A DNA stretch of 64,000 nucleotides, taken from sequence record OM386662.1. The stretch is one strand, 5' to 3'. The position numbers were made by a program, and so were the translations under genes. This document shows positions 4,127 to 39,377 of this stretch, one piece after another (the first letter of the stretch is position 1; each line of letters starts with the position of its first letter). The DNA comes from Escherichia phage vB_EcoM_ESCO47. The notes under the pieces are model-generated. The model did no database searches. It saw only the letters and a program-made list of their open reading frames with translations, and was not told the DNA's origin.

Positions 4127-5299
4127 ATGTCTGATTTAAAATCTCGTCTGATTAAAGCTTCTACTTCCAAAATGACCGCTGACTTGACTAAGTCTAAGCT
4201 CTTTAATAATCGTGATGAAGTCCCTACTCGTATTCCTATGTTGAATATTGCATTAGGTGGTGCATTGAATGCTGGTTTGCAGTCTGGTTTGACTATTTTT
4301 GCTGCCCCGTCTAAACACTTTAAAACATTGTTTGGGTTGACAATGGTTGCCGCATATATGAAGAAATACCCAGATGCGATCTGTTTGTTCTATGATTCAG
4401 AATTTGGTGCTTCAGAATCTTATTTCCGTTCAATGGGTGTTGATTTGGACCGCGTAGTTCACACTCCAATCCAATCAGTAGAACAACTTAAAGTTGATAT
4501 GACTAATCAGCTTGATGCAATCGAACGCGGTGAAAAGGTTATCATCTTTATTGACTCAATCGGTAACACAGCGTCTAAGAAAGAAACTGAAGATGCATTG
4601 AACGAAAAAGTTGTTGGTGATATGTCTCGTGCTAAGGCACTTAAATCTCTGTTCCGCATTGTGACCCCGTATCTGACTATTAAAGATATTCCGTGTGTTG
4701 CAATTAACCATACAGCAATGGAAATCGGCGGATTGTATCCTAAAGAGATTATGGGCGGCGGTACAGGTATTCTTTATTCTGCCAACACGGTATTTTTTAT
4801 CTCTAAACGTCAGGTTAAAGAAGGTACAGAATTGGCCGGTTATGACTTCACGTTGAAAGCAGAAAAATCTCGCACAGTTAAAGAGAAATCTACATTCCCG
4901 ATCACTGTTAATTTTGATGGTGGTATCGACCCATTCAGTGGCTTGTTAGAAATGGCAACTGAAATTGGTTTTGTAGTTAAGCCTAAAGCAGGTTGGTATG
5001 CTCGTGAATTCCTTGACGAAGAAACCGGTGAAATGGTTCGTGAAGAAAAATCCTGGCGAGCTAAAGCCACAGATTGCGTAGAATTCTGGGGACCTTTGTT
5101 TAAACACAAACCTTTCCGAGATGCAATTGAAACTAAATATAAACTAGGTGCTATCTCTTCTATTAAAGAAGTTGACGACGCAGTTAACGAATTAATCAAT
5201 GCTAAAACGTCTTCGAAAATTCCGGTAAAAGCTTCTGGTGCTCCATCTGCAGCTGATATCGAAAATGATTTAGACGATATGGAAGATTTTGATGAATAA
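4127..5299 (+). CDS. uvsX: UvsX recombinase (RecA-like)
   Basis: 390 aa; N-terminus MSDLKSRLIKASTSK and long stretches matching T4 UvsX as I recall it; RecA-type ATPase core. Confidence 0.96.
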   Translation: MSDLKSRLIKASTSKMTADLTKSKLFNNRDEVPTRIPMLNIALGGALNAGLQSGLTIFAAPSKHFKTLFGLTMVAAYMKKYPDAICLFYDSEFGASESYFRSMGVDLDRVVHTPIQSVEQLKVDMTNQLDAIERGEKVIIFIDSIGNTASKKETEDALNEKVVGDMSRAKALKSLFRIVTPYLTIKDIPCVAINHTAMEIGGLYPKEIMGGGTGILYSANTVFFISKRQVKEGTELAGYDFTLKAEKSRTVKEKSTFPITVNFDGGIDPFSGLLEMATEIGFVVKPKAGWYAREFLDEETGEMVREEKSWRAKATDCVEFWGPLFKHKPFRDAIETKYKLGAISSIKEVDDAVNELINAKTSSKIPVKASGAPSAADIENDLDDMEDFDE

Positions 5300-5642: not shown

Positions 5643-7085
5643 GTGGTAGAAATTATTTTGTCTCATCTTGTATATGACCAGACTTATTTTTCTAAAGTCT
5701 GGCCGTATATGGATTCTGAGTATTTTGAGCGTGGACCGGCAAAAAATGTCTTTAAAATTATAAAGAACCACGTTAACGAATACAGTGCTATGCCATCTAT
5801 TAACGCATTAAAGGTGGCTTTAGATAATAGTTCTTTAACCGAAAACGAGTATAAAGGAACTTCCGATTTAATCGATAAATTGGTCGATTCTCCTGAAGAC
5901 CCTGATTGGTTGGTTAAAGAAACCGAGAAATATGTCCAGCAAAAAGCAATGTATAATGCTACGTCTAAAATCATTGAGATTCAGACTAATGCTGAACTTC
6001 CACCTGAACAACGTAATAAGAAAATGCCTGACGTAGGAGCTATTCCAGACATTATGCGTCAAGCACTTTCAATCTCATTTGATAGTTATGTCGGTCATGA
6101 CTGGATGGATGACTATGAAGCTCGTTGGTTATCTTATCAGAATAAAGCACGTAAGGTCCCGTTCAAATTAAACATTTTGAATAAAATCACTAAAGGTGGT
6201 GCTGAAACCGGTACACTGAATGTTTTAATGGCTGGTGTTAACGTCGGTAAATCTTTAGGCCTTTGTTCACTTGCTGCAGATTATCTTCAAACAGGTCATA
6301 ATGTTCTTTATATTTCCATGGAAATGGCTGAAGAAGTTTGTGCTAAGCGTATAGATGCAAACATGCTTGACGTATCACTTGATGATATCGATGATGGTAA
6401 TGTATCTTATGCTGAATATAAAGCCAAGATGGAAAAATGGCGTTCAAAATCCACATTAGGACGTTTAGTAGTTAAACAGTATCCTACCGGCGGAGCTAAT
6501 GCTAATACATTCCGTGCATTACTTAACGAATTAAAACTCAAGAAGAACTTCGTTCCTTCTGTAATCATGATTGACTACTTGGGTATTTGTGGGTCTTGTC
6601 GTATCAGAGTTTACACTGAAAATAGCTACACATTAGTTAAAGCTATCGCAGAAGAACTTCGTGCTTTAGCGGTAGAATCTGAAACTGTTCTATGGACTGC
6701 AGCTCAGGTTGGTCGAGCAGCATGGGACGCTTCTGATATGAACATGAGTGATATCGCAGAATCAGCAGGTTTACCGGCGACAGCAGACTTCATGTTAGCA
6801 GTAATTGAGACCGAAGAACTTGCTCAAGCAGAACAGCAGCTCATTAAACAAATCAAATCACGGTATGGTGATAAGAACAAATGGAATAAATTCCTGATGG
6901 GTGTACGTAAAGGCAATCAGAAGTGGGTTGAAATTGAACAAGAAGGTATGAACACCACAAACACGGTAAATGAAAACGCAGGTGCTCAGATGCGTCACGC
7001 GGAAGCGAATCGTACGGAACGCGTAGGAAAAGCTAAAGCGACTAGAGCAGATTTAGACAATCTAGCCAATGAATTAAAATTTTAA
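5643..7085 (+). CDS. 41: replicative DNA helicase gp41 (DnaB-like)
   Basis: 480 aa; Walker A GVNVGKS; DnaB-family architecture; synteny with uvsX/40/61. Confidence 0.95.
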   Translation: MVEIILSHLVYDQTYFSKVWPYMDSEYFERGPAKNVFKIIKNHVNEYSAMPSINALKVALDNSSLTENEYKGTSDLIDKLVDSPEDPDWLVKETEKYVQQKAMYNATSKIIEIQTNAELPPEQRNKKMPDVGAIPDIMRQALSISFDSYVGHDWMDDYEARWLSYQNKARKVPFKLNILNKITKGGAETGTLNVLMAGVNVGKSLGLCSLAADYLQTGHNVLYISMEMAEEVCAKRIDANMLDVSLDDIDDGNVSYAEYKAKMEKWRSKSTLGRLVVKQYPTGGANANTFRALLNELKLKKNFVPSVIMIDYLGICGSCRIRVYTENSYTLVKAIAEELRALAVESETVLWTAAQVGRAAWDASDMNMSDIAESAGLPATADFMLAVIETEELAQAEQQLIKQIKSRYGDKNKWNKFLMGVRKGNQKWVEIEQEGMNTTNTVNENAGAQMRHAEANRTERVGKAKATRADLDNLANELKF

Positions 7086-7091
7086 TAAAAA

Positions 7092-7110
7092 GGAGACTTC
7101 GGTCTCCTTT
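7092..7110 (+). terminator. terminator-like hairpin after gene 41
   Basis: GGAGAC-TTCG-GTCTCC then TTT; short T tract. Confidence 0.4.
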
Positions 7111-7114
7111 CGGG

Positions 7115-7144
7115 GTTTACACCGCTCTTAAATCATGTTACTAT
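7115..7144 (+). promoter_or_regulatory. early promoter-like element
   Basis: -35 GTTTAC 7115-7120, 18-bp spacer, -10 TACTAT 7139-7144, then conserved AGACCTATCAA; ATG at 7171. Confidence 0.5.
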
Positions 7145-7170
7145 AGACCTATCAACTACTGGAGAACAAA

Positions 7171-7488
7171 ATGAAAACTATCGATTGCAAAGCAGAGTTT
7201 AAAGTTTTTTACCATGGCTCAAGCAGTGCAGCAAACATCGAAAACATGCTTTGTCCTCCTGAAGAAACAGGTGTACTGTCTGAAACCGGACGTAAGAAAA
7301 ACCTAAATCGAGTATTCTTTACTGAAGACATTGGTTTAGCAAAGATTTATGCAGGACGAGCAGCACGATCCTATGGAGGTGAACCACGTCTTTATCGAGT
7401 AATCACTCCGGTAGACGTAGTTCAAATGAATGATACTAAAGGTGCTACGGTATATCACGCCGAATGGGCCTTCTGTGAGGAAATATGA
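7171..7488 (+). CDS. hypothetical protein (105 aa)
   Basis: Preceded by an early promoter element; contains FYHGSS motif; function not recognised. Confidence 0.5.
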   Translation: MKTIDCKAEFKVFYHGSSSAANIENMLCPPEETGVLSETGRKKNLNRVFFTEDIGLAKIYAGRAARSYGGEPRLYRVITPVDVVQMNDTKGATVYHAEWAFCEEI

Positions 7489-7673
7489 GCAAATTAACTA
7501 AAGTTACTTTTATCGGTTGGTTTAAAAGCGGTGAGATGTTCACTAAAGATATCATGTTATCAGGTGATCGCGAAGAAATCGAGTGGGTTACGGTACAACT
7601 TGCTGAAGTGAACAACGCATTAGTTAAAGCATTTGTTAATGACGAGAAAGTTTTCGAAGCAGATTTTCGATAA
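7485..7673 (+). CDS. hypothetical protein (62 aa)
   Basis: Stop/start overlap with upstream ORF; no motif recognised. Confidence 0.4.
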   Translation: MSKLTKVTFIGWFKSGEMFTKDIMLSGDREEIEWVTVQLAEVNNALVKAFVNDEKVFEADFR

Positions 7674-7686
7674 TTTTAAAATAACT

Positions 7687-7716
7687 GTTTACAGGCCCCA
7701 CATACTGTGTTACTAT
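7687..7716 (+). promoter_or_regulatory. early promoter-like element
   Basis: -35 GTTTAC 7687-7692, -10 TACTAT 7711-7716, CTATCAA downstream; ATG at 7745. Confidence 0.5.
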
Positions 7717-7744
7717 CTTTCTATCAACTACAGAGGAAATTGAA

Positions 7745-8113
7745 ATGAAAAAATTAATCGCTTTAGCAATGGTATTTGGATTAACCGGATGTGGTGCCCA
7801 TGGCTTTATCCCTAATAACGTCGGCCAATTGATTTACAATCCGAATGTTAAACAGTATGACCAACCTAAAGTTGAAGTGGAAGACCCAGTTACTGTAGGT
7901 AATCGAATGATTCAAGCTGATGCTCATGCTCAACGTTATCGTGATTCTGATACTGTAGCTGTGTCAAAAGAACAGCGCGTTAAAGAACATTGCTTACAGG
8001 CTACTGAAATCGCATTCATTCGCTATGTTGAAACAACTGGTAAAGAGCCTTCCCAGAAACAAATCGCGAATAACTACGTCCAGTGTATTGAACGTTTAAA
8101 CAAATTTAATTAA
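7745..8113 (+). CDS. putative lipoprotein (122 aa)
   Basis: N-terminal signal peptide with lipobox-like LTGC; promoter element upstream. Confidence 0.55.
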   Translation: MKKLIALAMVFGLTGCGAHGFIPNNVGQLIYNPNVKQYDQPKVEVEDPVTVGNRMIQADAHAQRYRDSDTVAVSKEQRVKEHCLQATEIAFIRYVETTGKEPSQKQIANNYVQCIERLNKFN

Positions 8114-8116
8114 TTG

Positions 8117-8146
8117 GTTTACGCCAAAGTTAAAACAAGATACTAT
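8117..8146 (+). promoter_or_regulatory. early promoter-like element
   Basis: -35 GTTTAC 8117-8122, -10 TACTAT 8141-8146; ATG at 8175. Confidence 0.5.
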
Positions 8147-8174
8147 AAACATAACAAATCAAGAGGAAATTAAC

Positions 8175-8423
8175 ATGGAATTATTCGTAGCTAGTTCAGT
8201 AGCAGTTTTAATCGCAGGTATTGGTTCAATCATCATTTACATGTTGCCTTGGGTAATCGCACTTATTCGTGGCACAAAAAGCACAACAGCAATCTTCTTT
8301 GTATCTTTACTCTTTAACTGGACGATGGTTGGTTGGATTGGAACTTTAATTTGGTCTATCGTTGCCAAAAAGAAATCGGCTCAGCAGCCTCAACAAGTAA
8401 TTATTATTCGAGAAAAAGAATAA
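8175..8423 (+). CDS. imm: superinfection-immunity (Imm-family) membrane protein
   Basis: 82 aa, two predicted TM helices; LPWVIALIRG...FNWTMVGWIGTLIW matches the conserved core of the Imm superinfection-immunity family. Confidence 0.6.
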   Translation: MELFVASSVAVLIAGIGSIIIYMLPWVIALIRGTKSTTAIFFVSLLFNWTMVGWIGTLIWSIVAKKKSAQQPQQVIIIREKE

Positions 8424-8427
8424 ACTT

Positions 8428-8462
8428 GTTTACATTATAGATGGACTATAGTATAGTAGTCC
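8428..8462 (+). promoter_or_regulatory. early promoter-like element with inverted repeat around -10
   Basis: -35 GTTTAC 8428-8433, -10 TATAGT 8452-8457 inside GGACTA...TAGTCC repeat 8443-8462; ATG at 8487. Confidence 0.5.
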
Positions 8463-8486
8463 TATCAAATCAACTAAGGAGATAAA

Positions 8487-8780
8487 ATGAAAAAGTTATC
8501 ATTGGCAGCAATCTTACTTGCAGTATCATGCGCACCGGCTCCAGTTACGGCAGGTTATGATAAAGACCTCTGTGAGTGGTCAATGACTGCAAATCAAGAA
8601 GATGTTGAACAACAAATCTTCTCTGATATCATGAACATCACTAAACGAGACCGTCCTAATATGGTTAATAAAGTTGTTGAACAACTTAAGTCTGGCGGTA
8701 TCATGCAGTACAATTATGTTTTGTATTGTGACCCTAATTTTGATAACAAAGATATCGTAACCGAAATCACAGGTGAATAA
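8487..8780 (+). CDS. sp: spackle-like periplasmic protein (superinfection exclusion)
   Basis: 97 aa with signal peptide; GYDKDLCEWSMTA...QYNYVLYCD resembles T4 Sp as I recall it; adjacent to imm-like gene. Confidence 0.6.
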   Translation: MKKLSLAAILLAVSCAPAPVTAGYDKDLCEWSMTANQEDVEQQIFSDIMNITKRDRPNMVNKVVEQLKSGGIMQYNYVLYCDPNFDNKDIVTEITGE

Positions 8781-8781
8781 T

Positions 8782-9432
8782 ATGATTTATTATATGCACA
8801 AAAATGCGCCATTTAAATATGGTAAATTTCCTAATGCACAATGTTATAATATAACGCCGAATGAAAATAATAACGGATATCATCTCGGTGTAATTTTTGT
8901 AATTGTTAAAGATAACGAAATCGTCGCCTGGGCGGATTTTAAAGGTACAACATATGATGTTAATCCTGTGCCTTTCACATATTACAATATAACGGATTTG
9001 GCATATGATTATAATTGGTTTAATCATGACACGTTGGCTCATATTGAAGGTGTAGGATTTGACATCTCTTATTCTAGCTATTCATTATGTCCTATGAGCC
9101 GAGCTCACGGTAAAGATGCATCATATCTTTCAATTCGTAAACGTGTAAACTTCAAACGTAGTACAGATTATGTTGGTGGTCTCTTTGTTAAAGATAATAA
9201 AATAACCCGTATTAGTTATCCTTTAAGTGTAGGTCAAAAAGATGTTGATGTTGATTTAGACTTAACTGAAAATAACATTAATCGTATTGCTTCTGTATAT
9301 TTTGATATCGATGAAAAAATTGTAGTGTGTGGATACGAATTACCACCTGAAGAAAAGGCTGAAGCAATTGAAGTCGAATTAGAAATTTCTGTTGATGACC
9401 AAATATTTAATGCATTTATGAATCGAGGTTAA
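8782..9432 (+). CDS. hypothetical protein (216 aa)
   Basis: Listed ORF begins at GTG 8773; first ATG at 8782 follows GGTGA; no motif recognised. Confidence 0.5.
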   Translation: MIYYMHKNAPFKYGKFPNAQCYNITPNENNNGYHLGVIFVIVKDNEIVAWADFKGTTYDVNPVPFTYYNITDLAYDYNWFNHDTLAHIEGVGFDISYSSYSLCPMSRAHGKDASYLSIRKRVNFKRSTDYVGGLFVKDNKITRISYPLSVGQKDVDVDLDLTENNINRIASVYFDIDEKIVVCGYELPPEEKAEAIEVELEISVDDQIFNAFMNRG

Positions 9433-18556: not shown

Positions 18557-19048
18557 ATGGATCTAGCAAGTATGTACGGCACTCTTATTAAACCATTAAA
18601 AATTAAGGAACCAAAAATGGCTATCAAAATCGGCAAAACCTACAAACTGGTTGAACCTGAAATTAAAACTCCTGTACTGGTCGCTTCATATCATACTTTA
18701 AGCCTCCTTTTAGGTGATGAAGATTTCGAAATCGTATCTTTTAAAAGACATGTTTGGTTTGAAGGTTATGAAATAACGACTCGTCATCGTTCTTCAGGCC
18801 GAGTGGAAAATATTACTGTTTATACACACGAACTCGAGTTGTTTGAAGAATTGGTTCAAAAAGTTGTTGAAGACCCCACCGATCTTCTGTGTAAAGCAGT
18901 AAGCATTCGTCGTCCATTTGATAATCGTCGGATTTGTGGATGGGTAACTGATCAGTGGATTGAAGATGGTGTTGAGCTCTTGAACGTGGTCCATGATGGT
19001 GATTTTACTGTATGTCCACGTAGTGCAGTGGTTAATGTATTGAATTAA
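18557..19048 (+). CDS. hypothetical protein
   Basis: Alternative start ATG 18617 has AAGGAA RBS (143 aa); promoter element upstream. Confidence 0.45.
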   Translation: MDLASMYGTLIKPLKIKEPKMAIKIGKTYKLVEPEIKTPVLVASYHTLSLLLGDEDFEIVSFKRHVWFEGYEITTRHRSSGRVENITVYTHELELFEELVQKVVEDPTDLLCKAVSIRRPFDNRRICGWVTDQWIEDGVELLNVVHDGDFTVCPRSAVVNVLN

Positions 19049-19051
19049 TAG

Positions 19052-19099
19052 TTTTACTTCTCCTCTAGACATGATACTATAAACTTATCAACTAGAGGA
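19052..19099 (+). promoter_or_regulatory. early promoter-like element with inverted repeat
   Basis: -35 TTTTAC 19052-19057, -10 TACTAT 19075-19080; arms TCCTCTAG 19061-19068 and CTAGAGGA 19092-19099; ATG at 19107. Confidence 0.45.
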
Positions 19100-19106
19100 G
19101 AATAAT

Positions 19107-19634
19107 ATGTTAGTTTATCGAGTAGAACGTAGTTTTTGTACCCAAAGAGAATATTTGCCTTCAGTCGGATACGAAAACGGTGAAATGGTTCGTACCTGGG
19201 AGATATCCTGGAATAAAGAACCACGCTCACCTTACGGATGGTCTGGCACCGACAACTCTGAAGAAACCTGGGAATTCCTTGATAAACACGGGATATTGTC
19301 AGGCAACTTCTATCATAACGACGGCAATATAAACGCCCCTAATCGTCCTACAATCAAAAATGATCACCTCTTATCAAAAAATATTTTAAAACAAAATAAC
19401 CTTGATTTCATAGACCAAATAGCTGATTGGTTAGAGACAGGTGAATTTTACTTTGCGTTTGATACGGTCGACACGGTGTACCGATGGTTTGATAACTCCG
19501 ATGACATAGAACTCTTGAAGGCTAAAGGTTACTACATCGCGGTCTATGATGCTCCTGACGTCATTTTAGGCGACTCTCAACTTTTGTTCAAACGTTCTTC
19601 GGCAGAACAAGTTGATTTTATTTTAATAAAATGA
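19107..19634 (+). CDS. hypothetical protein (175 aa)
   Basis: Promoter element and GAGGAG RBS upstream; no motif recognised. Confidence 0.5.
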   Translation: MLVYRVERSFCTQREYLPSVGYENGEMVRTWEISWNKEPRSPYGWSGTDNSEETWEFLDKHGILSGNFYHNDGNINAPNRPTIKNDHLLSKNILKQNNLDFIDQIADWLETGEFYFAFDTVDTVYRWFDNSDDIELLKAKGYYIAVYDAPDVILGDSQLLFKRSSAEQVDFILIK

Positions 19635-19691: not shown

Positions 19692-19886
19692 ATGAAAACT
19701 TTATTAACTCAAGATCAATTTGAAGATATCCTTTTCGACCCAGAATTAGTTGTTGTTCAAAAAGAAATTACTAGTGGTCTTGAACACCATTCTTACGTAT
19801 ACGTTTATGAAAATGACAAACCAGTTATGGTTGCAGTACGTCACATCACAGGCGAAGGCACAACTTACTGGAAGGAAGCAATCTAA
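19692..19886 (+). CDS. hypothetical protein (64 aa)
   Basis: Promoter element and AGGAG RBS upstream. Confidence 0.45.
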
Positions 19887-20308
19887 TGGCTATTAAATTT
19901 GAAGTTAACAAATGGTACCAATTTAAAGATAAACGTGCCCAAGAAGAGTTTATTAAAGACCACACTGATAATGGGATTTATGCACGACGTCTTGGCATGG
20001 AACCATTTAAAGTATTAGATGTTGACCATCTTGGTCGTCCTACTAAAATTGTGACATCTACTGGCATGGTTGGATACGCAACAGGCGGTGATATCCTTGA
20101 TGAAAACTTTATCTGGCTCTCCACGAATGAAGCAGAGTTCTTTGTCGAAGTTGGAAATCCATACCAGGCAGCTGAAGAACAAGAACATGAAGAGCAAGAA
20201 CCAATGCCAGAATTGACTGAGTTCCCTTTACTGAAAGTTACTATTGAAAATAATGAACAAGCATGGTCTTTGTATCAAATGTTGAAAGCTCACTTTAAGG
20301 AACAATAA
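19886..20308 (+). CDS. hypothetical protein (140 aa)
   Basis: Stop/start overlap with upstream ORF; acidic C-terminal half. Confidence 0.5.
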
Positions 20309-20487
20309 TGCCGTTATACGACTATAAATGCCAATCTGAAGATTGTGGTCATGAATATGAAAAAATTAAAAGAATTTCTGAACGAGAAAACGATGTTTGC
20401 CCTGAATGTCATCGTCTGTCTACTCGTCGGGTTTCTGCTCCTAAACATGTGAACGGTGGTTTTTACGACTTACTTAAGAAGGATTGA
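20308..20487 (+). CDS. zinc-ribbon protein (FmdB-like, 59 aa)
   Basis: [18 protein letters not shown]...CPECHRLS: two CxxC pairs typical of FmdB-family Zn ribbons; below the ORF-track cutoff. Confidence 0.45.
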   Translation: MPLYDYKCQSEDCGHEYEKIKRISERENDVCPECHRLSTRRVSAPKHVNGGFYDLLKKD

Positions 20488-20489
20488 TT

Positions 20490-20915
20490 ATGGCTTTTAA
20501 AGGTTTTGAAGTTGGTAAGAAATATCGTATTATCAAAGGACAGGAAGATAATTTCTTGAGAATTCTTAATACGACTGGTAAACGTCTTAATACTAATCTG
20601 CATACTACTTTATTGTCCAAAGATTTTATTGTGGAAGAGATGATTGGTTATGGTGTTTCGATTATTGCTGTAGAAGCTGTAGGCGATTACGGCCGAACTA
20701 TTCATAGTATGCAAGGTGATATTCTGCTTTATGGTGCAGAATTTAAATTCTTTGAAGAAGTTCCGGAACCAGATACAGCTGTCGATTTCAAAAAAGGCTC
20801 TATAGAATTTGTTGATGGTTCGGTGATCGTATCAGGCGATGTGGTCATTACAGTTAAAAGTGAACAAGGGCGTTTGGCTGCAATTGATGCACTTCAGAAA
20901 ATTAAATTTAAATAA
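20490..20915 (+). CDS. hypothetical protein (141 aa)
   Basis: ATG 20490 preceded by AAGGA; listed ORF begins at TTG 20484; terminator follows. Confidence 0.5.
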   Translation: MAFKGFEVGKKYRIIKGQEDNFLRILNTTGKRLNTNLHTTLLSKDFIVEEMIGYGVSIIAVEAVGDYGRTIHSMQGDILLYGAEFKFFEEVPEPDTAVDFKKGSIEFVDGSVIVSGDVVITVKSEQGRLAAIDALQKIKFK

Positions 20916-20933
20916 GGGCTTCGGCCCTTTTTG
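20914..20933 (+). terminator. rho-independent terminator
   Basis: AAGGGC-TTCG-GCCCTT then TTT directly after stop at 20915. Confidence 0.6.
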
Positions 20934-20956: not shown

Positions 20957-20978
20957 ACCTTCATAACGAGGAGACAAC

Positions 20979-22796
20979 ATGATTAAAAATGAAATTAAAG
21001 TATTATCAGACGTAGAACATATTAAGAAACGTAGTGGTATGTATATTGGTTCTTCGGCTAAAGAAGCACATGAGCGTTTTTTGTTTGGTAAATATCAACA
21101 AGTTGAATATGTTCCTGGTCTGGTTAAATTAATCGATGAGATTATTGACAACTCGGTTGATGAAGCTATTCGTACATCATTTAAGTTCGCAAATAAAATT
21201 GATGTGCAAATTAAAAATAATCAAGTTTCGGTGGAAGATAACGGACGTGGTATTCCTCAAGGTTTAGTTACCGACCAAACAGGTGAACAAATTCCTGGGC
21301 CTGTAGCAGCCTGGACTATTCCAAAGGCCGGCGGTAACTTTGGCGATGACTCTGAACGCAAGACCGGTGGTATGAACGGCGTCGGGAGTAGTTTAACTAA
21401 TATCTTCTCTACGTTGTTTACAGGCATCACGTCAGATGGCGAAAATGAAATCACTGTTAATTGTTCAAACGGAATGGAAAACAAATCATGGTCTTCTAAG
21501 AAATCTAAAGGTAAAGGAACTAAAGTAATCTTCACTCCTGATTTCTCTTCATTTGAAGAGCATAATTTATCTCAAATTTATTTAGATATTACTTTAGACC
21601 GACTTCAAACATTGGCAGTCGTTTATCCTGATATCAAGTTCACATTTAATGGTAAAAAGGTTGATGGTAATTTTAAACGATTTGCTAAACAATTTGGCGA
21701 AGATAACATCATTCAAGAAAACGATAAAGTGTCAATCGCATTCACAACATCGCCTGACGGTTTTCGACATTTGACGTATGTGAACAACATTCATACTAAA
21801 AATGGTGGACATCATGTTGAATGTGTAATGGATGATATCTGCGAACATCTTTTGCCCGGTATTAAAAAGAAATATAAGGGTATTGAGGTAACTAAAGCTC
21901 GTGTTAAAGAATGTCTCACGATGCTGATGTTTATTCGTGATATGAGCAACATGCGTTTTGATTCTCAGACTAAAGAACGTTTAACGTCAACGTATGGTGA
22001 TATTCGTAATCATATCCAATTAGATGCTAAGAAAATTGCTCAGTCACTTCTTAAAAATGAAGCTCTGATTATGCCTATTGTTGAAGCAGCATTAGCTCGT
22101 AAATTAGCAGCAGAAAAGGCCGCCGAAACTAAAGCAGCTAAAAAGGCCACTAAAGCAAAAGTTCATAAGCATATTAAAGCTAATCAATGTGGTAAAGATG
22201 CAGATACGACATTGTTCTTAACAGAAGGTGATTCGGCAATTGGTTATCTCATTGATGTTCGTGACCGTGAACTACACGGCGGATTCCCATTACGTGGTAA
22301 GGTGATGAATAGCTGGGGTATGTCATATGCTGATATGATGAAGAACAAAGAGCTCTTTGATATCTGTGCTATCACAGGTCTTATTCTCGGTGAAAAGGCA
22401 GAGAACACGAACTATCGTAATATCGCAATTATGACCGATGCCGATCATGACGGTCTTGGAAGTATCTATCCGGCTTTGCTTGCTTTCTTTAGTAATTGGC
22501 CTGAATTGTTTGAACAAGGACGTATTCGCTTTGTTAAAACTCCGGTAATTATTGCACAAATTGGCAAAACACAAAAATGGTTTTATACTGTAGCTGAGTA
22601 TGAAGAAGCTAAAGAATCATTACCAAAACACGGTATTCGATATATTAAAGGACTTGGTTCACTTGAAAAATCCGAATACCGTGAAATGATTCAGAATCCA
22701 GTTTATGACGTAGTTAAATTGCCTGAAAACTGGAAAGAGTTGTTTGAAATGTTGATGGGTAATGACCCGGATCTTCGTAAAGAATGGATGTCCTAA
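20979..22796 (+). CDS. 39: DNA topoisomerase II large (ATPase) subunit, fused gp39+gp60 equivalent
   Basis: 605 aa GyrB-like; continuous frame with no bypass gap or inserted element. Confidence 0.92.
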   Translation: MIKNEIKVLSDVEHIKKRSGMYIGSSAKEAHERFLFGKYQQVEYVPGLVKLIDEIIDNSVDEAIRTSFKFANKIDVQIKNNQVSVEDNGRGIPQGLVTDQTGEQIPGPVAAWTIPKAGGNFGDDSERKTGGMNGVGSSLTNIFSTLFTGITSDGENEITVNCSNGMENKSWSSKKSKGKGTKVIFTPDFSSFEEHNLSQIYLDITLDRLQTLAVVYPDIKFTFNGKKVDGNFKRFAKQFGEDNIIQENDKVSIAFTTSPDGFRHLTYVNNIHTKNGGHHVECVMDDICEHLLPGIKKKYKGIEVTKARVKECLTMLMFIRDMSNMRFDSQTKERLTSTYGDIRNHIQLDAKKIAQSLLKNEALIMPIVEAALARKLAAEKAAETKAAKKATKAKVHKHIKANQCGKDADTTLFLTEGDSAIGYLIDVRDRELHGGFPLRGKVMNSWGMSYADMMKNKELFDICAITGLILGEKAENTNYRNIAIMTDADHDGLGSIYPALLAFFSNWPELFEQGRIRFVKTPVIIAQIGKTQKWFYTVAEYEEAKESLPKHGIRYIKGLGSLEKSEYREMIQNPVYDVVKLPENWKELFEMLMGNDPDLRKEWMS

Positions 22797-22818
22797 GCTC
22801 CTTCGGGAGCTTTATTTT
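22796..22818 (+). terminator. rho-independent terminator after gene 39
   Basis: AGCTCC-TTCG-GGAGCT then TTTATTTT. Confidence 0.6.
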
Positions 22819-22838: not shown

Positions 22839-23939
22839 ATGAAAGTTATGTTTATCCCATCTCGTGCAGTCCCATTTAATCCTGACCGTGTACAAGGTGG
22901 TCTTGAAGCGGTACATTTAAATGTGTTGAAATATTTAGTTTCTATCGGTGCCGATATTGATTATATCGGTTTTGATAACGACACATTTGGTGATTGGAAA
23001 GTTACACACCATCCTGTTGGCCATCTTACTAAATTCAGTCTAGGTATGAGTTATACTATGGCTCGTAAGATTGTTGAACTGGCCGGCATCCATGAATACG
23101 ATTTTGTTGTTACTATGGAACCGACTAAACTAACCGTTCAGGCAATTAAAGACGCAGGTCTCTCTAAAGTTCATAAGAATTTTATGGCAACACCATTTGA
23201 ACCTGTATCTCGTGGCATTGTTCAAATTTGGGACCAGACTATTCAAATTCATAAGAACGGTGGTAAGAGTTATGCTCCTACTAAAGCCTTCCGTGAATTT
23301 GAACGCAAATATTGTCATATGACTTCAGGTCTGACAGACAAAATTGATTATGATTATTGGCGAGCAAATCCGTTGTTTGAAGCCGAAGATTATCCGGTTA
23401 TTTGTTTGAATGAGAAACCTGAAGTTCTTCCAGCAACTGATCTGATTATTAGTGCACAACGTTATGACACTAAAATGCGTCGTACTGATGTTGCTCTTGA
23501 AGCGATTAAAGCGCTCGGCGAAAATGGTGCAGGATACTGTCCTAGTAAATGGGCACCACCGGCTAAGTATCCAGTAACTATTGATGCTCCACATAGTGAA
23601 ATCATGGAACGCCTTAAAACAGCTAAAGCACTTATCAATACGTGTCCTGACACCGGCACGGTAGAGAATAGTTCTATTGAAGCTATTTCTAAAGGTGTAC
23701 CTGTGATTCAGCTAGTCTTTAAAGATTATCCACATGCTACGTTTGAATATGACCCTGACACGGTACGTGTAGAGATTGATGCTTCCACCCCTAAGAAAGA
23801 AGTAGTTATGCTTTACACAAAAGCTGTATTAGAATTCACTGACACATACGAATCACGAGTCAAACGTGCAGAATATGTATGGCAAAAGTATAATCGGGAT
23901 GCAGTTGTAGCGATGTGGGATAAAATCTTCACAGCGTAA
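22839..23939 (+). CDS. GT-B fold glycosyltransferase (candidate DNA hmC glycosyltransferase)
   Basis: 366 aa; C-terminal TGTVENSSIEAISKGVPVIQ resembles the nucleotide-sugar binding motif of GT-B enzymes; T4 has no such gene between 39 and rIIA. Confidence 0.55.
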   Translation: MKVMFIPSRAVPFNPDRVQGGLEAVHLNVLKYLVSIGADIDYIGFDNDTFGDWKVTHHPVGHLTKFSLGMSYTMARKIVELAGIHEYDFVVTMEPTKLTVQAIKDAGLSKVHKNFMATPFEPVSRGIVQIWDQTIQIHKNGGKSYAPTKAFREFERKYCHMTSGLTDKIDYDYWRANPLFEAEDYPVICLNEKPEVLPATDLIISAQRYDTKMRRTDVALEAIKALGENGAGYCPSKWAPPAKYPVTIDAPHSEIMERLKTAKALINTCPDTGTVENSSIEAISKGVPVIQLVFKDYPHATFEYDPDTVRVEIDASTPKKEVVMLYTKAVLEFTDTYESRVKRAEYVWQKYNRDAVVAMWDKIFTA

Positions 23940-29882: not shown

Positions 29883-31208
29883 ATGCAACTGAATAATCGT
29901 GATTTAAAAAGTATTATTGATAATGAAGCACTAGCGTATGCAATGTATACGGTTGAAAACCGTGCAATCCCAAACATGATTGATGGGTTTAAACCGGTTC
30001 AACGATTTGTTATTCATCGTGCATTGGACTTGGCTCGTGGAAACAAAGAAAAATTCCATAAACTGGCTTCAATCGCTGGTGGTGTAGCTGATCTCGGTTA
30101 TCACCACGGTGAATCTTCAGCACAAGATGCCGGTGCTCTGATGGCTAACACATGGAATAACAACTATCCATTATTAGATGGACAAGGCAACTTTGGTTCA
30201 CGAACGGTTCAAAAGGCTGCAGCATCTCGTTATATTTTTGCTCGTATCAGTAAAAATTTCTATAACGTCTATAAAGATTCTGAGTATGCTCCAGAACATG
30301 AAGATAAAGAACACGTTCCACCAAAATTCTATCTTCCAATTATCCCGACGGTTCTATTGAACGGTGTTTCTGGTATCGCAACCGGGTATGCAACAAGCAT
30401 TCTGCCTCATAGTTTTAAATCTGTTAAGAAGGCTGTATTACAAGCTCTTCAAGGTAAAAATATCACTAAGCCTAAAGTTGAATTCCCAGAGTTTCGCGGC
30501 GAAGTGCATGAAGTTGAAGACCGATATGAAATTCACGGCACATATAAATTCACATCTCGGACTCAAATGCAAATCACCGAGATTCCATATAAATTTGATC
30601 GTGAAACGTATGTGAGTAAAGTTCTCGACCCGTTAGAAGATAAAGGGTTGATTACATGGGAAGATGACTGCGGTGAACATGGTTTCGGATTTAAGGTGAA
30701 GTTCCGTAAAGAGTATTCGCTTCCGGACGATGAAGCTCTTCGTCATGAGAAAATCATGAAAGACTTTAGTCTTATTGAACGTCGTTCCCAGAACATTACT
30801 GTTATCAATGAAAAAGGCAAGTTGGCTGTATATGATAACGTTGTTGATTTGATTAAAGATTTTGTTGAAGTCCGTAAGACTTACGTTCAAAAACGTATTG
30901 ACAACAAAATCGTTGAATCAGAAAAAGCTTTTAAACTAGCTTTTGCCAAGGCGCATTTTATCAAGAAAGTTATTGCCGGTGAAATCGTGATTCAAGGCAA
31001 GACTCGTAAAGCTTTGACCGAAGAGTTATCACAAGTGGAAATGTATAAAGAACATGTAGACAAGTTAGTAGGTCTTAACATCTTCCATATCACATCAGAT
31101 GAAGCACGTAAACTAGCAGAAGAAGCTAAAGCTAAGAAAGAAGAAAATGAGTACTGGAAATCTACAGATGTCGTAGCAGAGTACACTAAAGACCTGGAGT
31201 CTCTATGA
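29883..31208 (+). CDS. 52: DNA topoisomerase II medium subunit gp52 (GyrA-like)
   Basis: 441 aa; MIDGFKPVQRFV motif. Confidence 0.93.
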   Translation: MQLNNRDLKSIIDNEALAYAMYTVENRAIPNMIDGFKPVQRFVIHRALDLARGNKEKFHKLASIAGGVADLGYHHGESSAQDAGALMANTWNNNYPLLDGQGNFGSRTVQKAAASRYIFARISKNFYNVYKDSEYAPEHEDKEHVPPKFYLPIIPTVLLNGVSGIATGYATSILPHSFKSVKKAVLQALQGKNITKPKVEFPEFRGEVHEVEDRYEIHGTYKFTSRTQMQITEIPYKFDRETYVSKVLDPLEDKGLITWEDDCGEHGFGFKVKFRKEYSLPDDEALRHEKIMKDFSLIERRSQNITVINEKGKLAVYDNVVDLIKDFVEVRKTYVQKRIDNKIVESEKAFKLAFAKAHFIKKVIAGEIVIQGKTRKALTEELSQVEMYKEHVDKLVGLNIFHITSDEARKLAEEAKAKKEENEYWKSTDVVAEYTKDLESL

Positions 31209-33888: not shown

Positions 33889-34164
33889 ATGACTACCAAA
33901 AATATTGAAATCGTCCGTGAAATTATTACTGTTGCTTCTATTCTGATGAAATTTTCAAGGGAAGACATTGTTGAGGATCGTCAAACATTTATCGAATTCT
34001 TGAATGAGATAGGAATTAGAAATGATGGCCGACAGTTAAATCAAAACTCATTTAAAAAGCTAGTTTCGAATTTAACTGTCGAAGAAAAGAAAACACTGAT
34101 CAGTGAATTCAATGAGGGTTACGAAAATATTTATCGTCATTTAGTGATGCATTCTAACAATTGA
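33889..34164 (+). CDS. asiA: anti-sigma70 factor AsiA
   Basis: 91 aa; IEIVREIITVASILMKFSREDIV...LNEIG matches T4 AsiA as I recall it. Confidence 0.9.
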   Translation: MTTKNIEIVREIITVASILMKFSREDIVEDRQTFIEFLNEIGIRNDGRQLNQNSFKKLVSNLTVEEKKTLISEFNEGYENIYRHLVMHSNN

Positions 34165-34169
34165 TTCAA

Positions 34170-34829
34170 TTATTTAGCCCTTCCTAAAATCCTGGCCGCT
34201 TGGTTACAAATAGAAGCTAAGCGGTCTTCTCCTATTATTTTAGTCCCCTTATACCAATACATTGAAACAGCCCCAGCATATACGTTGTCCAAATTAAAAT
34301 AAGGGCAACTATACATGTAGTTTAGTTCCTCAGTTTTAGACTTTGTTGGCAGAAATGCGAACTCTGTTTTAGAATCAAAGTGCCTTCCACTTAAATGAAT
34401 TAAATATTCATTCATAGTCTTATCCACCGGAAATCCACCTAAAGACTTCTCGGAAATGGTAGTAGGTAGTTTACCCTCATATGCAATAAGGTCCACAAAA
34501 TAATTTAAATTTTTAGGGCGGAAAGAATACACTGCACTAAAATCTGCACCGGAAGAGATATGAACTATCTGTAATTGTTCTAAAGCCGCAGATTCAAAAC
34601 GTTGGTCTCTTTCCTTTTGTATAACTTCTGTGTATGTGTCATATTTGGCTCTCACATAATAGTCGAGGAATATAGTTCCTTTATACCATATCAAAGCCAT
34701 AATGAATAAAAGAACAACAACGGCCACACGAGAAACAAGAACTTTCCCGGTGGCATTATCTTTGAAAATACGATCTAACAACCCAAATAGAATATCACTA
34801 GGAGAGAATGATACTCTAGGCGCTGCCAT
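34170..34829 (-). CDS. t: holin T
   Basis: 219 aa; MAAPRVSFSPSDILFG...single TM...C-terminal periplasmic domain matching T4 T as I recall it. Confidence 0.93.
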   Translation of the reverse strand: MAAPRVSFSPSDILFGLLDRIFKDNATGKVLVSRVAVVVLLFIMALIWYKGTIFLDYYVRAKYDTYTEVIQKERDQRFESAALEQLQIVHISSGADFSAVYSFRPKNLNYFVDLIAYEGKLPTTISEKSLGGFPVDKTMNEYLIHLSGRHFDSKTEFAFLPTKSKTEELNYMYSCPYFNLDNVYAGAVSMYWYKGTKIIGEDRLASICNQAARILGRAK

Positions 34830-34839
34830 AATACCTCCT

Positions 34840-35391
34840 TTATCTGAAGATATTTATCACTCTTTTAAAAAATGATTTTCGTTCTTTTTCTGGCCATGCC
34901 GGGAATTCGCCACCTAAATGCTCATGCTTTTCATAAAGAGCAAAGAAACGTTTAAGATTCTGGTAATAGAATTTCTCGTCTTTATTTGCAACAGAAGCTT
35001 CAACCAAATTAGACAAGACTTGGTACTCTTTAAAAAGTTGATCAAGTTTTCTATTTCTAAGAGTCAAACGTTTATAACACTCATCCTCTTTCCAGCCGCC
35101 ATCTATCCAAAGATCAAACTCGCCAGGCTCATCAAATGTTGCACCCTGTAAGCTTCCTATACTATCAATTTTAACGGGTTGTTTATCGAAGGTCCAAGCT
35201 AGTTTACCGCGATGATCTTCTTCGTAAATCCAATCTTGAATGCGTTCGTCAAAAACAATCGCATATCCTTCTTTATGATCAAGTGGTTTTTTAGTTGTAG
35301 AATGCGCCGGGAGCCCAATGCCTTTAACAGGTTTATATGTTTCTTCTTTATAAAATTCTTTAGTGTCAAAATAGTAGTGGTAAATTTTCAT
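34840..35391 (-). CDS. 38: tail fibre assembly protein gp38 (T4-type)
   Basis: 183 aa; MKIYHYYFDTKEFYKEE...HLGGEFP matches T4 gp38 as I recall it. Confidence 0.9.
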   Translation of the reverse strand: MKIYHYYFDTKEFYKEETYKPVKGIGLPAHSTTKKPLDHKEGYAIVFDERIQDWIYEEDHRGKLAWTFDKQPVKIDSIGSLQGATFDEPGEFDLWIDGGWKEDECYKRLTLRNRKLDQLFKEYQVLSNLVEASVANKDEKFYYQNLKRFFALYEKHEHLGGEFPAWPEKERKSFFKRVINIFR

Positions 35392-35399
35392 TATTATAA

Positions 35400-35415
35400 A
35401 GGGCCCGAAGGCCCT
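35400..35415 (-). terminator. hairpin between genes 37 and 38 (minus strand)
   Basis: Minus-strand AGGGCC-TTCG-GGCCCT with weak U tract; likely attenuator or stability element. Confidence 0.35.
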
Positions 35416-35419
35416 CTCC

Positions 35420-38400
35420 TTAAGCTAAACGAACGATATAGTTAAACGCAACGTTTTTAACAGTGTTCTCTGTATTACCTGTTGCGTTAACTGTTATTGT
35501 GTGACTATGTGAGCCTAATGCAACGGTGTGTGTATGAGCACCAATACCTACAGTATGCGTATGAGCACCAACGGCCACGTTATGTGTATGTGCTCCAGCC
35601 GAAGCAGCAGTACCAGATAAAGAGTGACTGTGGTTGCCCTGACTGTCTGTTTTCGCACAATAACCAGCTCCCTGCTGGTTGGTTCCTTTAACCGTGGATA
35701 CACTTGCCGGAATGGTTACTGTTCCGTATTGGCTCCAACCACTACTGCTCATCCTTAAACCATCTGTGTGAGCATGGGCGCCGGTTGAGTTTGTGGAACC
35801 GCTCAGACTATGTGTATGCGCACCAGCTGAAGCAGCAGATTTGGTACCGTAGTCAAAACTCGAACTTGTCTTAGTACCGTAGTCAAAACTTGACGACGTT
35901 TTTGTACCTAGATCAACCGAGTTAGAAGAAGCACTATGGGTATGAGATTTAACACCATCTGCTTCTGTACTCAACACTGCACGACCACTCGGTTTACCTT
36001 TAATAGTTTGTCCACGCATATCAGGAATAGTTCCTGAAGTATATACTGCACCTAATTTAGGATACGCCGCTTTGTCAAAAGTCTGGCCTTCCATAATAGC
36101 ATAACCCACAGGAGGTGTATCAGTTGGCCATGGAATCGGAGCACCAATCGGATAACTAGAGATGATATCCGTCTTAAGACTATTTATCGTCGTATTTAGG
36201 TTAGCAAAGTTACCAGTACCACCTGTGATATTACCATCAGTACCAATTATAACGGTATTAATTTCAATTTTATTAGGTGAACGGAACGAGCCATCACGTC
36301 TAAATTGCCATGCTAAATCCGCCTTTTGTGGACCTGTTGAATCATTATCACCGCCTTCATGATAGTGAATTCTAAAATCACCCGTACTAATTAATGTACC
36401 CAAAGAATAACAACTATCGCCCTGGACATATCGTTGTTTCAAAATAGGAACGTAAGTACTTGTATCTGTACGATTAATATTCATGTAGAATGGGGCACGA
36501 ACATTTTCATTATTTTGCGAGACAAATGAACCAGCCCCTGCTGGTTTAACAATATCAGTACATTCAGCATCAATATATGTCGACTGCCCTAATTGCATAC
36601 GGAAATTAGGACTTATACGCGAATTAGTGGTCAACACAACGAGTTTTGTATCATTGTCTACGGTGACCATATTACCGCCGGCACCATCATCACCTAATGT
36701 AACGGTATGACGCATTTGTACCATGCCATTATTAAGACTAATACTTAATGGGCGGAGATTACTTATTCCACCGCTTTCACCAGCATCTTTGGGAGTTGGA
36801 ATAATATGCAATGCTGCTTCAGAGCGGCGGAAAATAGCACCGTATTCGGCATTCCAAATTCTTAATGCATCATTAGTTCCACCAATTTTAACTTGACCAC
36901 TAATAGAAGAACCGCCTGTTAAACTAAGTCCATTGCTCATGGTAACTGCACCATTTAAAGTGCTCAAACCATCAACTTTAAGACTTCCTGCAGTGTTAAT
37001 AGAGCCGTTAGCATTAACTTGTCCATTGAACTGGGATACAACAGGCCCAGTAGTTTCAGAGCCACTTGGAGCCATACGCTGTGAATAAAAATAATATCCT
37101 TGTCCATCAGAAACTTCGAATACTGTTTCGCGCGCTTTGTCACCGGTAGCATTAAAACTATTACCCCAAGCTTTAACAGTCACATAACTTTTATTCTGTC
37201 CTGCTCTAGAACCAGCTTCCCACAAGATTTGTTTTGTGCCGTCTACCCCTGTAGGAGCTTTAAATGTTAAAGCCGACGTATTATCGTCACCTGCAAAATA
37301 CATGCCGGATCGTATAGAAATACGTTGGGTTGAATAGATGGTACCATCAGCCCTAAGATTTAATTCATTATTACCGGTTTTGATGTTTAATATGCCAGGT
37401 TCAACAATAAGACCCTCGGACATAGATACTGCCATACGTCCTGTGCCACGGAAATAATGATAAAACTTACCATTACTATTATACCCAAGATGAGTTTGTC
37501 CATCACCGTTAGCATTACCATCAGGAGTTGTTTGAATTGTTAAAACAGAAGCGTTATTTCCAGGCATTACCCAGGTGGCACCAGAGTCATCTGAGCGACC
37601 GACAGTCAAACGTTTCGTACTTAAAAATACCCCATTTGTTAAAGTCGCAGTAGAAGTACCTTGTGCAACAAAATCAATTTTACCTGAAGCGATAGATTTG
37701 AATCCAGTAGATGGGTCCCCTAGAACTATATAACATTCGCCCATAGCGCCAGTTGAACCATAGTTATTAATGTTTTCATCTGCGGTAATTGTGCCAATTG
37801 CGAGAGAACGACGTAATACTAAAGATCCATCATTACGAAGACCCATCCGTTTATTAATCGCGGTGTCACCTGTCCACCAAGAAATCTCTTCGCTTTTACC
37901 AGTTTGTGAAGAAACTAATTCATGATAAATCGTGCCGCCGGATTTTGCGCGGAATTTACGAAGATAGTTAATACCGTTTTCTTCACCTGTGCCAGGATAA
38001 ACATACTGAACTAATGATTGCGAATCGTATTGTCCAAATGCTTTTGTGTCTAAAACAATGGTTTTCGTATTAACTTGTGGAGCAGAAACTATACCAGTAG
38101 CGGAGTTAATATTGCCTGACGCAGAAATATTACCTGTTGCAACAACCAAGCTACCAGAATCAACCGTAAATCCACCATCGCGTCGGAAAGTCCAATATTT
38201 CGAAGTGCCTGTTTCATCAATATAATGCATCTTCATTGAGCCTTCATTAACTAAGGTCCCTAATGAGAAAGTACCATCTTTATAACGTTGCTTAATTAAC
38301 GGGTTATATTCTGAAGTAGCGGTTGATGCGGAAATATCCATGAAAATAGGGGCTTTTGCCGTGTGTTGACCGGCCCAAGAACCAACTCCGGTGCCCTTAT

Positions 38401-38674
38401 AAGCAAATTCGATATATCCACCTGATGCAACATTTTGTGAGCCTATTAAATTAAATGTACCTGTCTGAGTATAGTTACCTACATGAGTTACATTACCATT
38501 AATATCCCCACCTTTAGCGAACCCAAGGTTAATAATATTGCCTAAATCATCTTTTGTAAAAATAGTACGATCTTTTAAGTTTATAGCCAATTCACCTTCG
38601 GCTAATTGCGCAGCTGTTGGATTAACACCAGCTACTTTGCTTCTTTTAAATTGTATTTGCTTAATAGTAGCCAT
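35420..38674 (-). CDS. 37: long tail fibre distal subunit gp37
   Basis: 1084 aa; C-terminal His boxes GAHTHN/GAHTHT/GAHTHT/GSHSHT and terminal [11 protein letters not shown]. Confidence 0.9.
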
Positions 38675-38688
38675 AAGTCCTCTTTAAC

Positions 38689-39351: not shown

Positions 39352-39377
39352 TATTTGGCCTCCTTATAAGTATACCG

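What the first reader, a model, noticed from the sequence alone, without database searches (positions are those of the whole stretch)
20979..22796. Topoisomerase large subunit is a single fused ORF (no gene 60 split or bypass)
The 605-aa GyrB-like protein is continuous through the region that in T4 is split into genes 39 and 60 with the translational bypass element. This phage therefore carries the uninterrupted form.
Basis: partly seen in the sequence, partly recalled or inferred. Interest (0 to 1): 0.3.

Follow-up and report, generated by a model that had tools for sequence, protein, structure and literature searches.

The report
Unsplit T4-type topoisomerase II large subunit
This RB69-like (Mosigvirus) phage encodes its topoisomerase II large subunit as one ordinary 605-residue gene, the normal ancestral arrangement that about 98% of T4-like phages share. 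T4's famous gene 39/gene 60 split with the 50-nt ribosome hop is the rare exception, so the finding is correct but ordinary.

Summary
Window 20979..22796 (+) is a single 605-aa ORF. T4 gp39 residues 1-473 align to its residues 1-474 (79.7% identity), and T4 gp60 residues 27-159 align to its residues 473-605 (86.5%). Nothing is missing or inserted at the junction. The window has no mobA homing endonuclease, no 50-nt coding gap, no GGA take-off/landing codon pair, and no T4-type C- or N-terminal extension peptides.

All type IIA B-subunit motifs are present. The protein matches the solved, enzymatically active T6 gp39 end to end. The partner subunit gp52 is encoded at 29883..31208.

The window is a Mosigvirus. 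Its gp39 is 95% identical to RB69 gp39 and identical across the junction. RB69's GenBank record already notes that T4 is the split form.

In the phage collection, 2199 records hold a homologue, and 41 carry a near-full-length copy of the T4-type mobA/bypass cassette. The literature (Manning & Atkins 2022; Xin et al. 2024) describes the continuous gene as the parental state and T4's split as a mobile-element insertion. "Fused" is therefore a misnomer: the gene was never split.

Verdict: real, correctly interpreted, already known, low interest.

The parts
20979..22796 (+). Gene 39 (uninterrupted '39+60' form): DNA topoisomerase II large subunit, 605 aa, GyrB/ParE-like
   Evidence: ORF. Pfam HATPase_c, DNA_gyraseB, Toprim and TOPRIM_C. 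phrog_543 'DNA topoisomerase II large subunit', E=1.5e-286, residues 1-605. Full-length match to T6 gp39, PDB 8ylu_C. 95% identical to RB69 gp39. dN/dS 0.12 against RB69.
20968..20973 (+). Shine-Dalgarno sequence GAGGAG, 5 nt before the ATG
   Evidence: Read directly from the sequence.
20979..21668 (+). GHKL ATPase domain (about aa 1-230). Motifs: N-box DEIIDN at aa 53, DNGRGIP at aa 87, ATP-lid GGMNGVG at aa 130
   Evidence: Pfam PF02518 on aa 47-189. Motif positions. GyrB 24-kDa and 43-kDa fragments align to aa 5-230 and 5-382.
21723..22133 (+). Transducer (GyrB second) domain, aa 249-385, with the QTK loop at aa 330-332
   Evidence: Pfam PF00204, E=2.6e-14. QTK position.
22209..22535 (+). 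Toprim domain, aa 411-519, with catalytic EGDSA (aa 416-420), PLRGK (aa 437-441) and DADHDG (aa 487-492). In T4 this is the domain cut in two.
   Evidence: Pfam PF01751 on aa 411-519, below the gathering score (17.4 vs 23.1 bits). Motifs. ParE30 and topo II Toprim domains align to aa 400-604.
22536..22790 (+). Toprim-associated C-terminal tail domain, aa 520-604 (within the part equivalent to T4 gp60)
   Evidence: Pfam PF16898 on aa 520-604, 27.0 bits, just under the 29-bit cutoff. 86.5% identical to T4 gp60.
22398..22454 (+). Intact site corresponding to the MobA-element insertion and replacement in T4 (codons A474 to G492). DNA similarity to T4 gene 39 ends at about 22399. The T4 50-nt gap would sit after 22454. 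The codons here are GGT-CTT, not T4's GGA-UAG take-off and GGA-UUA landing.
   Evidence: Matches to T4 and HY01 stop at query position 150, which is window 22399. The match to GRNsp7, a MobA-bearing Salmonella phage, stops at window 22396. The insertion site at aa 466-473 through D490/G491 is described in bioRxiv 10.1101/2022.08.31.505936.
20914..20929 (+). UUCG-tetraloop hairpin followed by a T-run, upstream of gene 39 (terminator-like or RNA-stability element)
   Evidence: Terminator scan; sequence.
22795..22812 (+). UUCG-tetraloop hairpin (AAGCTCCTTCGGGAGCTT) followed by a T-rich tail. It overlaps the last 2 nt of the gene 39 stop codon.
   Evidence: Terminator scan; sequence.
29883..31208 (+). 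Gene 52: topoisomerase II medium subunit (GyrA/ParC-like cleavage-religation core), partner of gp39
   Evidence: Pfam PF00521, E=1.6e-78. Residues 1-440 match T4 gp52 chains 8yo3_A and 8ylu_A, E about 1e-264.

Best explanation
Window 20979..22796 is the ordinary, never-interrupted gene 39 of a Mosigvirus (RB69-like T-even phage). It encodes the complete B-type subunit of a type IIA topoisomerase: GHKL ATPase, transducer, Toprim and Toprim tail. Together with gp52 (window 29883..31208) it should form an A2B2 heterotetramer like the T2 and T6 enzymes. That enzyme uses ATP to pass one DNA duplex through a transient double-strand break in another, relaxing and decatenating phage DNA during replication. 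Translation is conventional, with one start, one stop and no recoding. The MobA homing-endonuclease/bypass cassette that splits the T4 gene has never inserted here, or at least has left no trace. Shown here: ORF continuity, colinearity with gp39+gp60, motif integrity, absence of the cassette, presence of the partner gene, and purifying selection. Inferred from homology: enzymatic activity and quaternary structure.
For: The ORF and its coordinates are. T4 gp39 aa 1-473 and gp60 aa 27-159 tile the protein with a 2-residue overlap and no insertion. Every catalytic motif is present. The end-to-end alignment (1-605 vs 1-604) to T6 gp39 has a single 1-residue gap far from the junction. T6 gp39 was solved by cryo-EM and shown active in relaxation with gp52 (PMC11461880). 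No mobA was found (tblastn best E=0.45). The T4 hairpin TAGCCTTCGGGCTA is absent. BLASTN of the T4 insert matches only the flanking topoisomerase codons. The protein is 95% identical to RB69 gp39 and identical through the junction, with the same gene order. dN/dS is 0.12 against RB69 and 0.07 against T4 gene 39. gp52 is present and full length. The T4-type cassette is found near full length in 41 of 2199 phage records with a homologue. All 31 sampled rows with at least 95% junction identity are uninterrupted.
Against: Nothing substantive. No biochemical data exist for this particular protein. Pfam Toprim (17.4 vs 23.1 bits) and TOPRIM_C (27.0 vs 29 bits) fall just below their gathering thresholds. 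The same domains nevertheless align full length to solved topoisomerases.
Confidence: 0.97

Rival explanations
1. Secondary re-fusion ('hit and run'). A MobA cassette once split the gene and was later excised precisely, recreating a single ORF, as proposed for a clade of Aeromonas phages.
For: Such cases exist in eight Aeromonas phages (bioRxiv 10.1101/2022.08.31.505936). A perfectly clean excision would leave no trace and cannot be formally excluded.
Against: The known hit-and-run genes keep CTE- and NTE-derived insertions at the site. Here the protein aligns without any insertion at aa 466-492 to T6 and RB69, and at the DNA level over the junction to T2. Its length of 605 aa matches the parental forms (T2 605, RB69 606). 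The junction DNA resembles RB69 (about 98%) and T2, not the T4 element's homR copy. No sampled Mosigvirus relative carries the cassette.
Confidence: 0.02
2. The continuity is an artefact or hides a recoding event: an assembly collapse that removed an insert, or an in-frame stretch that is actually bypassed.
For: None found.
Against: 154 independent phage records are 95-99% identical over the 301-nt junction segment, and every sampled one is collinear. There is no extra sequence relative to T6, T2 or RB69. There is no stop codon, no GGA...GGA pair and no hairpin at the site.
Confidence: 0.005
3. The gene is an inactive relic, and the phage relies on host gyrase or topo IV.
For: From general knowledge, T4 topoisomerase mutants show a DNA-delay phenotype and are partly rescued by host gyrase, so the enzyme is not absolutely essential.
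Against: All ATPase, QTK and Toprim catalytic motifs are intact. Purifying selection is strong, with dN/dS 0.07-0.12. The partner gp52 is intact.
Confidence: 0.005

Closest known systems
RB69 gp39 (NP_861694.1, RB69p004), DNA topoisomerase II large subunit of the type Mosigvirus
   Same: 95.0% aa identity over the full length. The sequence is identical through the junction (…GLILGEKAENTNYRNIAIMTDADHDGLGS…). The neighbours are the same: 39.1-like ORF, 39, ORF003c, rIIA.1, rIIA.
   Different: 605 vs 606 aa (one 1-residue indel). 93.1% nt identity. The window has fewer MotB-family paralogues upstream.
T6 and T2 gp39 (two-subunit T-even topo II; T6 cryo-EM structure PDB 8ylu, PMC11461880)
   Same: Single uninterrupted large subunit. 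The T6 protein aligns 1-605 vs 1-604 with all domains, and T2 gp39 is about 82% identical at the protein level. It pairs with gp52. Relaxation activity was shown experimentally for T6.
   Different: A different genus (Tequatrovirus). Junction-region DNA is about 80% identical.
T4 gp39 + gp60 (three-subunit topo II with the MobA cassette and 50-nt translational bypass)
   Same: Same enzyme and same catalytic motifs. The two T4 polypeptides together cover the window protein.
   Different: T4 has a roughly 1.1-kb mobile element inserted in the Toprim domain. It adds a 43-aa C-terminal extension to gp39, the mobA HNH endonuclease, a 26-aa unique N-terminus plus an element-borne homR copy on gp60, and the 50-nt gap. 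None of these is present in the window.
Bacterial GyrB/ParE and the N-terminal half of eukaryotic topo II
   Same: Same domain order: GHKL ATPase, transducer, Toprim, tail. phmmer E-values run from 1e-37 to 1e-62.
   Different: The best-scoring aligned stretch to E. coli GyrB ends at query residue 535. The protein scores closer to eukaryotic topo II than to gyrase. From general knowledge, the T-even enzymes relax DNA and do not supercoil it.

Membership tests
Type IIA topoisomerase B subunit (T-even phage gp39, uninterrupted form) | GHKL ATPase domain with N-box, G1 (DxGxG) and G2 ATP-lid motifs | tested here: met
   PF02518, E=3.5e-11. DEIIDN at aa 53, DNGRGIP at aa 87, GGMNGVG at aa 130.
Type IIA topoisomerase B subunit (T-even phage gp39, uninterrupted form) | Transducer domain with the QTK-loop lysine | tested here: met
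   PF00204, E=2.6e-14, 53.5 bits vs a 27-bit cutoff. QTK at aa 330-332.
Type IIA topoisomerase B subunit (T-even phage gp39, uninterrupted form) | Complete Toprim domain on one polypeptide, with the catalytic Glu (EGDSA) and the DxDxD metal-binding motif | tested here: met
   EGDSA at aa 416 and DADHDG at aa 487 lie in the same ORF. The region aligns to ParE30 and topo II Toprim structures. The Pfam Toprim score alone is sub-threshold.
Type IIA topoisomerase B subunit (T-even phage gp39, uninterrupted form) | Full-length colinearity with an experimentally characterised member | tested here: met
   Residues 1-605 align to 1-604 of T6 gp39 (8ylu_C), 1157 bits. T6 activity and structure are reported in PMC11461880.
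Type IIA topoisomerase B subunit (T-even phage gp39, uninterrupted form) | Cognate A-type subunit (gp52) encoded by the same genome | tested here: met
   Window 29883..31208. PF00521, E=1.6e-78. Matches T4 gp52 residues 1-440.
Type IIA topoisomerase B subunit (T-even phage gp39, uninterrupted form) | ATP-dependent DNA relaxation/decatenation activity | not testable with these tools
   Inferred from about 82% identity to the active T6 enzyme.
MobA / gene 60 translational-bypass cassette (T4 type) | HNH homing endonuclease gene (mobA) between the two halves of the topoisomerase gene | tested here: not met
   tblastn of T4 MobA against the whole window gives a best E of 0.45. The ORF is continuous.
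MobA / gene 60 translational-bypass cassette (T4 type) | 50-nt coding gap with matched GGA take-off and landing codons, a stop codon after take-off, and a UUCG hairpin at the take-off site | tested here: not met
   The window reads GAC GGT CTT GGA AGT (D-G-L-G-S) with no inserted bases. TAGCCTTCGGGCTA is absent from both strands.
MobA / gene 60 translational-bypass cassette (T4 type) | Element-derived C-terminal (about 44 aa) and N-terminal (about 45 aa) extension peptides, which persist even after hit-and-run excision | tested here: not met
   No insertion relative to RB69 or T6 at aa 466-492. T4 gp39 aa 474-516 and gp60 aa 1-26 have no counterpart in the window.

The most novel reading that the evidence does not exclude
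The most that could be new concerns the Mosigvirus lineage as a whole. It has about 154 sequenced relatives with 95-99% identical junction DNA, and none of the sampled ones carries a cassette. That absence might reflect a real barrier to MobA homing. One candidate barrier is the roughly 20% nucleotide divergence of the 22398-22454 target from Tequatrovirus genes. Another is the arabinosylated cytosine DNA and recombinational isolation of RB69-type phages. The alternative is simply lack of exposure or of sampling. This says nothing new about the gene itself.
Probability: 0.25. Interest if true: 0.15.

Novelty: already known. Interest (0 to 1): 0.04.

Why it matters
It matters little. The finding confirms correct annotation of a core replication gene. 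It also places the window in the large majority of T4-like phages that keep the parental two-subunit topoisomerase II. Its only use is as another "empty site" reference sequence for studies of the MobA/bypass mobile element. No open question becomes more testable because of it.

Tried and rejected
I searched the whole window for remnants of the T4 cassette.
- The exact hairpin string TAGCCTTCGGGCTA is absent.
- BLASTN of T4 nt 4400-5530 of locus L001 matched only the flanking topoisomerase codons.
- tblastn of MobA found nothing (all).
- The CCTTCGGG string at 22800 looked briefly like a bypass-type hairpin. It is an intergenic UUCG terminator-like hairpin that begins within the stop codon, 2 nt before its end.

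I considered hit-and-run excision and rejected it, because the junction carries no CTE/NTE-like insertion.

Rfam and tRNA scans of the window found nothing.

The primary paper on MobA homing (Bonocora et al. 2011, PNAS) is not in the held library. Its content is cited only through Manning & Atkins.

I did not run structure prediction or the large protein-database searches. An 82%-identical solved structure and more than 2000 annotated phage homologues already answer the question.

Full report
**1. The observation**

The ORF listing returns an ATG-initiated ORF at exactly 20979..22796 on the + strand, 605 aa. A GAGGAG ribosome-binding site lies at 20968-20973, 5 nt upstream. Pfam finds the four domains of a type IIA topoisomerase B subunit:
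- HATPase_c on aa 47-189
- DNA_gyraseB on aa 249-385
- Toprim on aa 411-519
- TOPRIM_C on aa 520-604

The last two fall slightly below their gathering scores. PHROGs assigns the whole protein to phrog_543, "DNA topoisomerase II large subunit" (E=1.5e-286, aa 1-605). Its C-terminal 154 residues also match phrog_7229, "DNA topoisomerase II" (aa 452-605), which by its length and position I take to be the gp60-type family.

**2.

I fetched the T4 locus with its annotation: gene 39, mobA, gene 60 joined across the annotated 50-nt "non-coding translational bypass region". I translated gp39 (516 aa) and gp60 (160 aa, gap removed) and compared them with the window protein.
- T4 gp39 aa 1-473 align to window aa 1-474 (79.7% identity).
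- T4 gp60 aa 27-159 align to window aa 473-605 (86.5% identity, no gaps).

The two T4 polypeptides therefore tile the window protein completely. The last 43 residues of T4 gp39 and the first 26 of gp60 have no counterpart in the window.

At the DNA level, similarity to T4 gene 39 ends at about window 22399 and similarity to gene 60 resumes at about 22407. At the position of T4's take-off codon the window reads GAC GGT CTT GGA AGT (D-G-L-G-S), with no inserted bases, no stop codon and no GGA/GGA pair.

Three searches looked for cassette remnants:
- The T4 hairpin string is absent from both strands of the 64-kb window.
- BLASTN of the T4 insert finds only the flanking topoisomerase codons.
- tblastn with MobA finds nothing (best E=0.45).

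**3. What the gene is and how it works**

All catalytic signatures are present in one polypeptide:
- N-box DEIIDN (aa 53)
- DNGRGIP (aa 87)
- ATP-lid GGMNGVG (aa 130)
- QTK loop (aa 330)
- Toprim EGDSA (aa 416)
- PLRGK (aa 437)
- DADHDG (aa 487)

The best solved-structure match is T6 gp39 (8ylu_C). It aligns 1-605 to 1-604 with one single-residue gap far from the junction. That protein, together with gp52, was shown to relax DNA and was solved by cryo-EM (PMC11461880).

The partner subunit is encoded 7 kb downstream at 29883..31208. It matches PF00521 at E=1.6e-78 and aligns to residues 1-440 of T4 gp52.

dN/dS is 0.12 against RB69 and 0.07 against T4 gene 39, so the gene is under purifying selection.

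The inferred mechanism is that of the T2/T6 enzyme: a gp39(2)gp52(2) heterotetramer that performs ATP-driven strand passage. The sequence features are shown here. The activity is inferred from homology.

**4. Context**

The window is a Mosigvirus. The best protein hits (98.3-98.8%) are Shigella phage ESh15, whose record is classified as Mosigvirus, Escherichia phage MM02 and Shigella phage phi25-307. Identities to RB69 are as follows:

| Protein | Identity to RB69 |
|---|---|
| gp39 | 95.0% |
| ORF003c | 97.5% |
| rIIA.1 | 100% |
| rIIA | 97.2% |

The gene order is the same as in RB69. The junction peptide is identical to RB69's.

UUCG-tetraloop hairpins with T-runs flank the gene at 20914-20929 and 22795-22812.

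**5. Comparison with what is known**

RB69's GenBank record already carries the note that [quoted passage not shown].

Manning & Atkins (bioRxiv 10.1101/2022.08.31.505936) make these points:
- The split is caused by a 1.1-kb MobA homing-endonuclease element that carries the bypass cassette.
- The element inserts at aa 466-473 of the large subunit and extends to D490/G491.
- Every clade with the element has near-identical "parental" relatives without it.

Xin et al. (PMC11461880) state that T2 and T6 have the two-subunit enzyme and that T4 is the only known three-subunit case.

In the phage collection used here:
- 2199 records hold a homologue.
- 41 hold at least 80% of the T4-type cassette, and 43 match it at 95% identity or more.
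- Over the 301-nt junction segment, 1038 of 1101 matching records cover it in one piece. The bottom-ranked half-matches are T4, HY01 and Acinetobacter phage Stupor, which are MobA-bearing or split forms.
- Salmonella phage GRNsp7, another cassette carrier, loses similarity at window 22396.
- All 31 sampled rows with at least 95% junction identity, the Mosigvirus group, are uninterrupted.

**6. Rivals**

- Hit-and-run excision, as proposed for an Aeromonas clade, would leave CTE/NTE-derived residues. None is present.
- An assembly artefact or hidden recoding is excluded by colinearity with 154 near-identical independent records and by the absence of extra sequence.
- A dead relic is contradicted by intact motifs and strong purifying selection.

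**7. Verdict**

The feature is the well-known default state of this gene in T-even-type phages. "Fused" should read "never split". Novelty: already known. Interest: very low.

The only residual speculation is whether the complete absence of the cassette among sampled Mosigvirus genomes reflects a barrier to MobA homing. Candidate barriers are target divergence of about 20% from T2 and the RB69-type arabinosylated DNA.

Noticed in passing
window 22839..23939 (+): A 366-aa ORF sits between gene 39 and rIIA.1, where T4 and T2 have no gene. It has no Pfam hit, and its PHROG family (phrog_8302) has unknown function. It is 97.5% identical to RB69 ORF003c/RB69p003. Thomas et al. 2018 (PMC6024577) proposed that protein as the DNA arabinosyltransferase, and a 2026 NAR paper (PMC13326640) proposed it as 'beta-arabinosyltransferase 2' acting on arabinosylated 5-hydroxycytosine. 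This suggests that the phage has RB69-type arabinosylated DNA.
   Followed up: partly
window 422..4026 (+): Four ORFs lie upstream of uvsX (4127..5299): 386 aa (phrog_5757, 'peptidase'), 238 aa (thymidylate-synthase-like), 299 aa (unknown, phrog_3891) and 182 aa (thymidylate-kinase-like). This looks like part of the RB69 gp45-gp50 cluster described for 5-hydroxy-dCMP synthesis and cytosine arabinosylation (PMC13326640). I did not compare it directly with the RB69 genes.
   Followed up: partly
window 20914..20929 and 22795..22812 (+): Gene 39 is bracketed by two GC-stem hairpins with C(UUCG)G tetraloops followed by T-runs. The region 20300-24300 has 8 terminator-like sites against 2.6 expected from shuffles. 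Other CCTTCGGG strings occur at 12487, 31293 (+) and 28590 (-). They are probably the intercistronic UUCG hairpins typical of T4-like phages.
   Followed up: partly
window 18557..19634 (+), compared with L003 (RB69) 6849..8872: Between dexA and cef the window has only two MotB-family/motB.2-like ORFs (163 and 175 aa) in about 2.5 kb. RB69 has five ORFs in about 3.5 kb. The best megablast hits cover only 92-93% of window 18000-27000 at 91-93% identity, so this phage is mosaic here and not a near-clone of any deposited genome.
   Followed up: no
window 19886..20308 and 20484..20915 (+): Two paralogous ORFs (140 and 143 aa) both match phrog_622 and weakly match goF families. They are separated by a 59-aa FmdB-like zinc-ribbon ORF (20308..20487). 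The second paralogue occupies the position of T4 39.1 but is larger (143 aa vs 86 aa).
   Followed up: no
window ~34000..44400 (- strand): There is a strand switch with a GC-skew sign change. The long tail fibre genes lie on the minus strand: the distal subunit (gp37-like) at 35420..38674 and the proximal subunit (gp34-like) at 40551..44396. No tRNA genes and no Rfam families were detected anywhere in the 64 kb.
   Followed up: no
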